From: Octopus sinensis
Lineage: Eukaryota
DNA: 15,741 nucleotides
Reading direction: 5' to 3'
Assembly (NCBI RefSeq): GCF_006345805.1
Contig: NW_021825379.1
Span: 1 to 15,741 of the forward strand
Positions 10,992-12,516 of this stretch are shown here, one piece after another (position 1 is the stretch's first letter; each line of letters begins with the position of its first letter). A program made the translations under genes and the position numbers. Under the pieces are notes generated by a model. It saw nothing but the letters and a program-made list of their open reading frames with translations. It was not told the origin of the DNA and searched no databases.

Positions 10992-11090
10992 ATATATATA
11001 TATATATTATATATATATATATATAATAATATATCTATATATATATATATATATATATATATGTGCGATTGTGCGTGTGTATGTATGTAT
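10275..11090. repeat. Long compound (CA)/(TA)/(TATG) microsatellite
   Basis: Direct inspection. Confidence 0.95.
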
Positions 11091-11091
11091 A

Positions 11092-11418
11092 GTGAAGGCG
11101 CGTGGCTAAGTAGTGGTTACGTCATTAGCTCACGATCGTAAGGCCGTGGGTTCAATTCCCGGCGACGCATTATGTGCTTGAGCCAGACACTTTATTTCAC
11201 GTTGCTCCAGTCCACTCAACTGGCAAAAATGGGTAGTACCTGTATTTCAAAGGGCAAACCTTGTCACACTCTGTGTCACGCTGAATCTCCCTGAGAATTA
11301 CGTTAAAAGTACACGTGTCCGTGGTGTGCTCCGCCACTTGCATGTAAATTCCATGACCAAGCTGGTCTGTTGACCGTATCAGCTGAGACCCTCGCTGACG
11401 TAACCGACGGCGTGCTCC
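11092..11418 (+). mobile_element. tRNA-derived SINE, family B, full length
   Basis: Head GGCGCGTGGCTAAGTAGTGGTTA..GGTTCAATTCCC; homologous to 12186-12516 (minus) and 2970-3058. Confidence 0.85.
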
Positions 11419-11469
11419 TATATATATAATATATATATCAAAATAAGCAACAAGCATATCCAGAGATAA

Positions 11470-11556
11470 TGCAGTACGATCGTTTCATGCAACGCCATTT
11501 AATTGAACAATGAAATCATTACATCAATTTAAAATGTAGAGCGATCTTCAGCTGCA
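11470..11556 (-). ncRNA. Type I hammerhead ribozyme, long stem II with a damaged base
   Basis: Minus strand reads UGCAG-CUGAAGA-[long hairpin with CAUUU/AAAUG and AAUUGA/UCAAUU]-GAAAC-GAUC-GUA^CUGCA. Stem I is a perfect 5 bp and stem III is the palindrome ACGAUCGU. The base of stem II pairs poorly. Confidence 0.75.
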
Positions 11557-11764
11557 CAAAGACATAAAATTTAATTGAATTAGAACAGATGGACACATTA
11601 GTATAATTATACCTAAAATCTCCAAGAAGTTAAGGAGATCGACAAAGAACGTGTACCTACAACAACATAGCCGCAACTGTATATATATATATCCTGTAGA
11701 TTTTTGCTGCCGTGGTAACTAGTTATTTATTTTTCCGTGTTAATTGTTAACAAGGTAAATACAC

Positions 11765-12185: not shown

Positions 12186-12516
12186 TAATTGGTTCTCTGT
12201 CGGTTACGATGGCGAGTGTTCCAGCTGAACCGATCAACAGAACAGCCTGCTCTTGAAATTAACGTACAAGCGGCTGAGCACTCCACAGACACGTGTATCC
12301 TTAACGTAGTTCTGAGGGAGATTCAGCTTGACACAGTGTGTGAGTGTGACAAAGCTGATCCTTTGAAATACAGTCAGCTGAGCGGACTGGAGCAACGGGA
12401 AATAAAGTGTCTTGCTCAAGGATGCAACGTTCCGCATGGAGCAACGTGCCGCTAGAAGCTCACGATCTTACAATCGGGAGTTGCATACCCTAACCACTAA
12501 GCCACGTACTTTCACC
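12186..12516 (-). mobile_element. tRNA-derived SINE, family B, diverged
   Basis: Reverse complement aligns along the length of 11092-11418 with an internal deletion. Confidence 0.85.

What the first reader, a model, noticed from the sequence alone, without database searches (positions are those of the whole stretch)
11438..11680. Second, sequence-unrelated long-stem-II hammerhead in a ~240-bp insert between (TA)n tracts
Seen: UGCAG-CUGAAGA-[58 nt]-GAAAC-GAUC-GUA^CUGCA on the minus strand. It has the same architecture as the 8119 ribozyme (GUA triplet, AC-NNNN-GU palindromic stem III, long stem II) but different helix sequences. Inference: a separate family sharing a conserved structural variant, which argues for selection on the fold. 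The weak base of stem II suggests this copy is impaired.
Basis: partly seen in the sequence, partly recalled or inferred. Interest (0 to 1): 0.75.

Follow-up and report, generated by a model that had tools for sequence, protein, structure and literature searches.

The report
Long-armed hammerhead of Hydra retrotransposons
This 243-base piece is the broken-off tail of a Penelope-like jumping gene, and it carries a predicted self-cutting hammerhead RNA with an arm two to several times longer than in published relatives; the form occurs some 24,000 times in this genome, and its odd weak base is normal for the family rather than damage, but cutting is untested.

Summary
The motif is real: minus strand 11557-11469, complete type I core, 58-nt helix II region, AC-GAUC-GU-A. 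The insert is the 5'-truncated 3' end of a repeat family; walking upstream reaches a copy with reverse transcriptase, CxCX5C linker, GIY-YIG endonuclease and a ~2.8-kb 3' UTR, i.e. a Hydra-clade Penelope-like element. The long arm is a lineage trait: 24,538 pattern matches against 379 control, downstream and sense in 47 of 60 related RT loci, antisense in 0, with strong covariation. The U-U at the helix II base is fixed (60 of 60 copies) and published for cnidarian Hydra elements and a cleaving axolotl ribozyme; only U10.2C and two distal changes are private to this copy. Hammerheads in these elements are known; the long arm exceeds the published search pattern. This scan found the same class before on other DNA. 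One lead: an AWUAAA hexamer 17-26 nt before the cut site, unsupported by the poly(A) tests I could run.

The parts
11438..11678 (-). 3'-terminal, 5'-truncated fragment of a Hydra-clade Penelope-like retrotransposon (family A)
   Evidence: 91-95% identity over 212-245 nt to the other 39 of 40 scored places, 2174 candidates; other copies run on upstream into a ~2.8-kb UTR, endonuclease and RT
11552..11557 (-). helix I, 5' arm
   Evidence: pairs with 11474-11469; covaries across families
11545..11551 (-). core CUGAAGA (C3-A9)
   Evidence: each position 51-60 of 60 in the family
11487..11544 (-). long helix II region, 58 nt: U10.1-U11.1 mismatch, short proximal helix, bulge, middle helix, distal hairpin
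   Evidence: U-U in 60 of 60 copies
11543..11543 (-). private change U10.2 to C, breaks the first pair above the U-U
   Evidence: C in 2 of 60 copies; pair probability 0.65 in the majority sequence, 0 here
11498..11503 (-). AUUAAA hexamer, 23 nt before the predicted cut; poly(A)-signal-like, role unknown
   Evidence: AWUAAA in 45 of 47 RT-linked ribozymes; 11,321 genome matches; absent from the 8119 family
11475..11486 (-). GAAA core, 2-bp helix III with palindromic loop GAUC, GUA triplet; cut predicted between 11475 and 11474
   Evidence: no fold as monomer, 8-bp duplex of -12.0 kcal/mol between two copies
11469..11474 (-). helix I, 3' arm
11438..11468 (-). U/GU-rich 3' stretch ending at the family's commonest 3' junction, 36-37 nt past the cut site
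   Evidence: 31 of 62 copies end at +35 to +49, 28 of 62 at +112 to +158
11419..11438 (.). (TA)n target tract at the element's 3' end
   Evidence: most family copies end in (TA)n-type repeats
11679..11693 (.). (TA)n tract at the truncated 5' end

Best explanation
The insert is the truncated 3' end of a Hydra-clade Penelope-like retrotransposon lodged in a (TA)n tract, and it carries that lineage's type I hammerhead motif with a long helix II, predicted to cut the element's RNA weakly and likely in pairs; this copy is likely further weakened by a private change. Shown: element anatomy, family-wide U-U, lineage-wide long arm, covariation, 3' ends past the cut site. Inferred: the element's endonuclease nicked the (TA)n tract, reverse transcription began about 37 nt past the scissile bond on an RNA whose junction was intact (uncut or re-ligated) and stopped after 240 nt. 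Inferred: the 2-bp helix III is completed by pairing of two palindromic loops in tandem transcripts, and the U-U base keeps cutting slow enough to leave templates whole. The long arm is most likely a tolerated, structurally maintained extension whose proximal 4-7 bp matter most.
For: Anatomy: L101 holds RT (DKT motif, motifs A-C by eye), Asn-rich linker, endonuclease, UTR, the 3' end and an inverted 5' copy; GIY-YIG weak Pfam hit E 0.003, below cut-off; 711-aa homologues with RT and endonuclease at E 6e-36; Hydra motifs. Opposite-strand pieces in 12 of 55 loci. 47 of 60 RT loci have the long motif sense within 4.2 kb, 0 antisense. Covariation in helix I, helix II base and loop III palindrome, and along the arm in 21 related sequences: 84% paired, 80 double changes. 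Position 10.1-11.1 reads G-C, G-U, A-U, A-C or U-U by clade on the RT tree. U-U is in 14 of 26 published Hydra rows; axolotl Amex2 with U-U and 2-bp helix III cleaves 22% in an hour as monomer and more as dimer; U-U is described as the most active mismatch there. An Anolis element used uncut RNA as its dominant template in vitro.
Against: No cleavage assay. RNA reads (1,447 laid from three unstranded runs, mostly 90-95% alike, 65-70% running on into other sequence) show no pile-up of starts or ends at the cut site; they look like passengers in host transcripts, so power is low. The ribozyme fold is not the minimum-energy fold: 5.8 kcal/mol above it for this copy, 6.4 for the family medoid. The distal arm covaries less (77% paired; outer pair 7 of 21). 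Only 17 of 60 family copies keep all parts. Family A's own RWK region is missing from L101, and no tree with published Hydra proteins was built. Dimer action is borrowed from other elements.
Confidence: 0.8

Rival explanations
1. The long arm is functional cargo: it carries a polyadenylation signal (AWUAAA 17-26 nt before the scissile bond, U/GU-rich tract after it), so 3'-end processing and self-cleavage compete for the same site.
For: Hexamer in 45 of 47 RT-linked ribozymes across RTs 53-74% identical to family A, varying only at position 2 (A or U) between families; 11,321 genome matches, control 22; unpaired in some families, paired in others; UUGUU-like tract conserved downstream.
Against: Absent from 7 of 17 multi-member clusters, among them the 8119 family and an RT-linked one (L226); the carriers are one lineage, so descent may explain it; no retrocopy ending in 12 A within 14 nt of the site (1 chance match, control 6); no poly(A) among the loose ends shown (186 rows not shown); the U/GU tract also follows short-arm Hydra ribozymes.
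Confidence: 0.12
2. In family A the motif was already a dead relic; the U-U base and long arm abolished cutting and the family spread without it.
For: Every full copy includes the intact junction (the selection required bases past the cut); active fold not minimum-energy; ribozyme mutants did not block insertion in vitro in the Anolis element.
Against: Family A has its own helix I and helix II sequences that still pair, and a perfect palindrome; U-U also sits in sister families and in cleaving ribozymes.
Confidence: 0.12
3. The long-arm form arose independently in the 8119 family and family A (convergence), as a reading of 'sequence-unrelated' would allow.
For: No detectable similarity between the two; the 8119 family was not tied to any RT; short-arm forms also exist here (9,730 matches, control 489).
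Against: Long arms are shared by all RT-linked families sampled, down to 43% RT identity (L226), while arm sequences turn over fast, so loss of similarity is expected under descent.
Confidence: 0.15

Closest known systems
Hydra-clade Penelope-like elements and their hammerheads (Craig et al. 2021, PMC8557442; seen: passages, section 11, supplement passages and part 2 of 59 with Files S1 and S2)
   Same: C-terminal GIY-YIG, DKT, CxCX5C linker, (TA)n targets, sense type I hammerhead about 40-100 nt from the 3' end, U-U at the helix II base in 14 of 26 rows; an octopus member (Hydra-1_Obim) is listed.
   Different: Published helix II regions are about 12-26 nt (23 in Hydra-1_oBim) against 44-64 nt here; published helix III has 3-4 bp and a 1-3 nt loop against 2 bp and a palindromic tetraloop; published elements are mostly under 3 kb, these have Asn-rich ORFs of 840-1,120 aa and 3' UTRs of 0.5-2.8 kb.
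Minimal hammerheads of metazoan PLEs (Cervera and De la Pena 2014, PMC4209133; seen: parts 1-2 of 4 of the text, passages of supplement file 2; file 1 not searchable)
   Same: Type I, in the terminal repeat, palindromic helix III, thousands of solitary truncated copies, proposed dimer action with low activity.
   Different: Their descriptor allows at most 7+10+7 nt plus two extra bases in region II and would miss this form; their consensus keeps G10.1-C11.1.
Axolotl retrozyme ribozyme HHR_Amex2 (PMC7229834; seen: passages and section 15)
   Same: U-U at the base of helix II, 2-bp helix III with tetraloop; cleaves weakly alone, better as dimer.
   Different: Sits in 350-bp non-coding tandem repeats with loop 1-loop 2 contacts; no long arm is described in what I read.
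PLE-X1_sMoe hammerhead of spike moss (File S2 of PMC8557442)
   Same: A PLE hammerhead with about 54 nt between the core halves, so a long region II has a published precedent.
   Different: Plant, endonuclease-less, single flagged deviant; large loop on a 9-bp stem, different helix III.
Anolis Poseidon element PAc (Frangieh et al. 2024, PMC11167929; seen: parts 1-2 of 4)
   Same: AT-rich targets, several reverse-transcription start sites past the ribozyme giving an optional tail, uncut RNA as template.
   Different: Other clade; its ribozyme overlaps the ORF start and needed the protein to cleave.

Membership tests
Type I hammerhead ribozyme | Core CUGANGA, GAAA, A15.1-U16.1, NUH triplet in type I order | tested here: met
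Type I hammerhead ribozyme | Three helices around the core, supported by covariation | tested here: met
   helix III has only 2 bp as monomer
Type I hammerhead ribozyme | Standard pair at 10.1-11.1 (usually G-C) | tested here: not met
   U-U in 60 of 60; a known tolerated variant, so not disqualifying
Type I hammerhead ribozyme | Match to an Rfam hammerhead model | tested here: not met
   no hit; short-arm loci L230 and L234 also gave none, so the test is insensitive here
Type I hammerhead ribozyme | Helix I-helix II tertiary contact | tested here: inconclusive
   a small 3'-side bulge after 4-5 bp of helix II recurs; no partner identified
Type I hammerhead ribozyme | Self-cleavage | not testable with these tools
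   RNA reads uninformative
EN+ Penelope-like element | One ORF with RT then GIY-YIG endonuclease | tested here: met
   L101 in pieces; open ORFs of 842-1,124 aa in sister families; GIY-YIG below Pfam cut-off, RT not hit by Pfam
EN+ Penelope-like element | Terminal repeats, inverted 5' pieces, optional tail, no poly(A) end | tested here: met
Hydra clade | DKT in place of DKG; CxCX5C linker; CxxC and CxH in the endonuclease | tested here: met
   family A pieces in L101, L103-L105; 4 of 4 sister ORFs have DKT, CxCX5C, CxxC, 3 of 4 CxH
Hydra clade | RWK motif | tested here: inconclusive
   RWK in 2 of 4 sister ORFs, RWR and RWA in the others; region absent from L101
Hydra clade | Insertion into (TA)n | tested here: met
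Hydra clade | Generally shorter than 3 kb (a description, not a diagnostic) | tested here: not met
   family A exceeds 5.5 kb
Hydra clade | Placement in a tree with published Hydra, Neptune and Nematis proteins; absence of the CCHH motif | not tested
   the tree holds only this genome's RTs and three unnamed homologues
Non-LTR retrozyme | Short non-coding tandem unit of 300-600 nt | tested here: not met
   family A is the end of a coding element; the 8119 family does fit, unit about 594 bp

The most novel reading that the evidence does not exclude
In one lineage of Hydra elements the hammerhead's long helix II houses the element's polyadenylation signal, placed so that the poly(A) site and the ribozyme cut site coincide: folding of the arm would switch the transcript between a polyadenylated, translatable end, a self-cut end, and an intact template for reverse transcription.
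Probability: 0.12. Interest if true: 0.72.

Novelty: new variant of a known kind. Interest (0 to 1): 0.35.

Why it matters
The locus itself is an ordinary decayed transposon fragment. The class matters modestly: long-arm hammerheads outnumber short-arm ones about 2.5 to 1 in this genome (24,538 against 9,730 pattern matches) yet fall outside the published descriptor, so ribozyme counts in such animals are likely far too low. The lineage is also a natural series at the helix II base (G-C, G-U, A-U, A-C, U-U) attached to young elements with open ORFs, which makes the open question of what PLE hammerheads do testable: do these elements tune cutting down so that whole templates survive?

Tried and rejected
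Rfam on the window and on six loci: no hammerhead hit. First guess of a Neptune element from the Cys linker: dropped after section 11 of PMC8557442 showed DKT and CxCX5C to be Hydra marks. Coding potential of the 2.7 kb upstream: stops in all six frames of the majority sequence, internal ~840-nt duplications instead. Pfam did not recognise the RT pieces. Metagenome search for relatives: none confirmed, so other species' elements were not compared directly. Run search: no RNA holder listed; runs with small shares were not used as evidence. Reads laid on a young sister family: 0 reads in three raw runs, no test. Poly(A)-ended retrocopies: none. A footprint of cutting in 5' ends: the window's 8119 copy begins 4 nt after a cut site, but it is 1 of 20 loci and L035 and L039 run 77-82 nt past that point, so rejected. 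A UGUA upstream element in the distal hairpin: rejected, it alternates with UGCA as pairing predicts. Linking the 8119 family to an RT: two tblastn hits in flanks, both on the opposite strand and not shown to be part of the element. Lunse et al. 2016 (PMC5785218) is not held; known only through a review passage, and it or its supplements may describe long stem II variants. The careful tree did not finish; the quick tree is used for grouping only.

Full report
Observation. The minus strand reads GUGCAG-CUGAAGA-58 nt-GAAAC-GAUC-GUA-CUGCAU at 11557-11469, with the cut predicted between 11475 and 11474. The insert sits between (TA)n tracts. The 8119 motif has the same layout with 54 nt. Rfam finds neither.

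What the insert is. A search of the own genome (2.72 Gb; likely an octopus, my inference from size, repeat content and the published Hydra-1_Obim, not a tool result) gave 2,174 candidates; the 39 other places of the 40 scored are 91-95% identical. Flanks show that the 243 bp is a fragment: other copies continue upstream with shared sequence and end downstream at preferred points joined to (TA)n-type repeats. Two further searches walked upstream through about 2.7 kb of AT-rich non-coding sequence with internal duplications into a reading frame with CNCR-x-C, a GIY-YIG-like stretch and CELC. Locus L101 holds, in order on one strand, RT pieces, an Asn-rich linker, the endonuclease, the UTR and the 3' end, with an inverted copy of the 3' end at its truncated 5' side. 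Pfam gives only a weak GIY-YIG hit (E 0.003, below cut-off) and nothing for the RT; full-length homologues of about 710 aa exist at E 6e-36. DKT, CxCX5C and (TA)n targeting define the Hydra clade in section 11 of PMC8557442. Opposite-strand pieces occur in 12 of 55 loci (two of the 55 are the same place). Of 62 copies, 31 end 35-49 nt and 28 end 112-158 nt past the cut site (copies ending at the site itself were excluded by the selection). The window copy ends at +36/37.

The long arm is a lineage trait. The RT of L101 has 10,993 candidates in the genome; I fetched 60 of the 149 scored, chosen to span 53-81% identity and favouring open frames. 47 of 60 carry the long-arm motif on the sense strand within 4.2 kb after the RT, 0 on the antisense strand (listing). 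Genome-wide the 44-64 nt pattern has 24,538 matches (control 379), the 8-30 nt pattern 9,730 (control 489); 31-43 nt and over 64 nt were not counted. In the first 30 matches, unselected features are enriched: stem I of 4 or more pairs 16 of 30 against 3%, perfect palindrome 21 of 30 against 12%. 165 distinct hits in my loci fall into 46 clusters at 80%. A more distant family (L226, RT 43% identical) is a complete element with the long arm.

Selection on the fold. On 26 sequences picked from 25 of the 46 clusters plus the window copy (most chosen for looking intact, so the figure leans high), 89.4% of cells pair and 110 show double changes; shuffles give 58% and 33, slid partners 28-43%. Core columns are invariant by construction. 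On 21 related sequences the arm itself covaries: proximal and middle helix 82% paired, distal hairpin 77%, outermost distal pair only 7 of 21; RNAalifold recovers only the proximal 7 bp with a one-base bulge. Related sequences can beat the shuffles without structure, but the changes recur on separate branches of the RT tree.

The weak base. In 60 distinct full copies (8 partial hits dropped; half were selected by likeness to the window copy) U10.1 and U11.1 are each 60 of 60, U10.2 55 of 60, A11.2 55 of 60. A strict U-U pattern has 1,705 genome matches, control 0. Sister families L119, L120, L122 share U-U; others have G-C, G-U, A-U or A-C. In File S2 of PMC8557442, 14 of 26 Hydra rows have U-U (my count). 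The axolotl Amex2 ribozyme with U-U and a 2-bp helix III cleaves 22% in an hour as monomer and more as dimer, and PMC3088659 notes U-U as the most active mismatch (passages). The window copy differs from the majority at 7 of 131 positions; three lie in the arm: U10.2C (11543), 11513 and 11494. It thus has two mismatches next to the core, and is solitary, so it likely cuts poorly. 17 of 60 copies keep every part.

How it likely works. Shown: anatomy, fixed U-U, covariation, ends past the cut site. Inferred: endonuclease nick in (TA)n, reverse transcription from about 37 nt past the scissile bond, early stop. Since the copy includes both sides of the site, the template was uncut or re-ligated, as in the Anolis element in vitro. 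The palindrome cannot fold alone but forms an 8-bp duplex with a second copy (-12.0 kcal/mol), which fits dimer action in tandem transcripts as proposed in PMC4209133. Against: the active fold is about 6 kcal/mol above the minimum-energy fold, and RNA reads show no ends at the site, though these are unstranded, from a differently labelled organism and mostly passengers.

A lead. An AAUAAA or AUUAAA hexamer ends 17-26 nt before the cut in 45 of 47 RT-linked ribozymes and in 10 of 17 multi-member clusters (11,321 genome matches), with a U/GU-rich tract after the site. That is the layout of a poly(A) site (recalled knowledge). It is missing from the 8119 family, carriers are related, and no poly(A)-ended copies were found. 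I give it 0.12.

The 8119 family. 1,893 candidates; about 594-bp circularly repeated unit with inversions, retrozyme-like; no similarity to family A; no parent RT found. Its kinship with Hydra elements rests on layout alone.

Comparison and novelty. Hammerheads at Hydra ends are published, including an octopus element with a 23-nt region II. The published descriptor stops at about 26 nt. Eight searches showed no paper on long-arm forms in Hydra elements or cephalopods; Lunse et al. 2016 was not held and may bear on this, as may unread supplements. A spike-moss PLE has a 54-nt region II. Earlier notes of this scan reached the same reading on other DNA; I saw them after my own analysis and they are not independent support. 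Verdict: new variant of a known kind, interest 0.35.

Noticed in passing
window 9283-9325 (+): A third, short hammerhead-like core: CUGAUGA, 13 nt, GAAAC-GU-UA with palindrome AACGUU and weak helix I, at the end of a pyrimidine- and CA-rich stretch (8740-9440); looks like a minimal PLE-type motif.
   Followed up: no
window 7940-8713 (-): The 8119 element is 1.3 units of a ~594-bp repeat; its 5' end lies 4 nt after the previous unit's predicted cut site (1 of 20 loci; others do not show this).
   Followed up: partly
window 11080-11410 and 12199-12500: The insert sits in the (TA)n end of another dispersed repeat, which has an inverted relative at 12199-12343 (81%); SINE-like by recall, no tRNA called.
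   Followed up: no
L101, L124, L129 ORFs: The ORFs carry two Asn-rich low-complexity expansions (after the RT and before the Cys linker), lengthening them to 840-1,120 aa against about 710 aa in homologues.
   Followed up: no
family A 3' UTR (L075, L054): The UTR of about 2.8 kb contains internal duplications of about 840 nt at 73% identity; UTR length varies from 0.5 to 2.8 kb among sister families.
   Followed up: partly
L124, L125, L127, L114: 15-25 nt before helix I and the last 10 nt of the element: A possible outer helix (GAGAA or GGAAAA with the terminal U/C-rich tract) whose 3' strand ends at the element's 3' junction, so it may mark the reverse-transcription start (seen; not counted).
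   Followed up: no
L136, L171, L172, L173: Sister families with identical RT fragments and open ORFs up to 947-1,124 aa look recently active.
   Followed up: no
L211 (G000:C1:4620800-4625800): A 445-bp tandem unit with a 45-nt-arm hammerhead, three direct copies plus an inverted one: a long-arm retrozyme-like family.
   Followed up: partly
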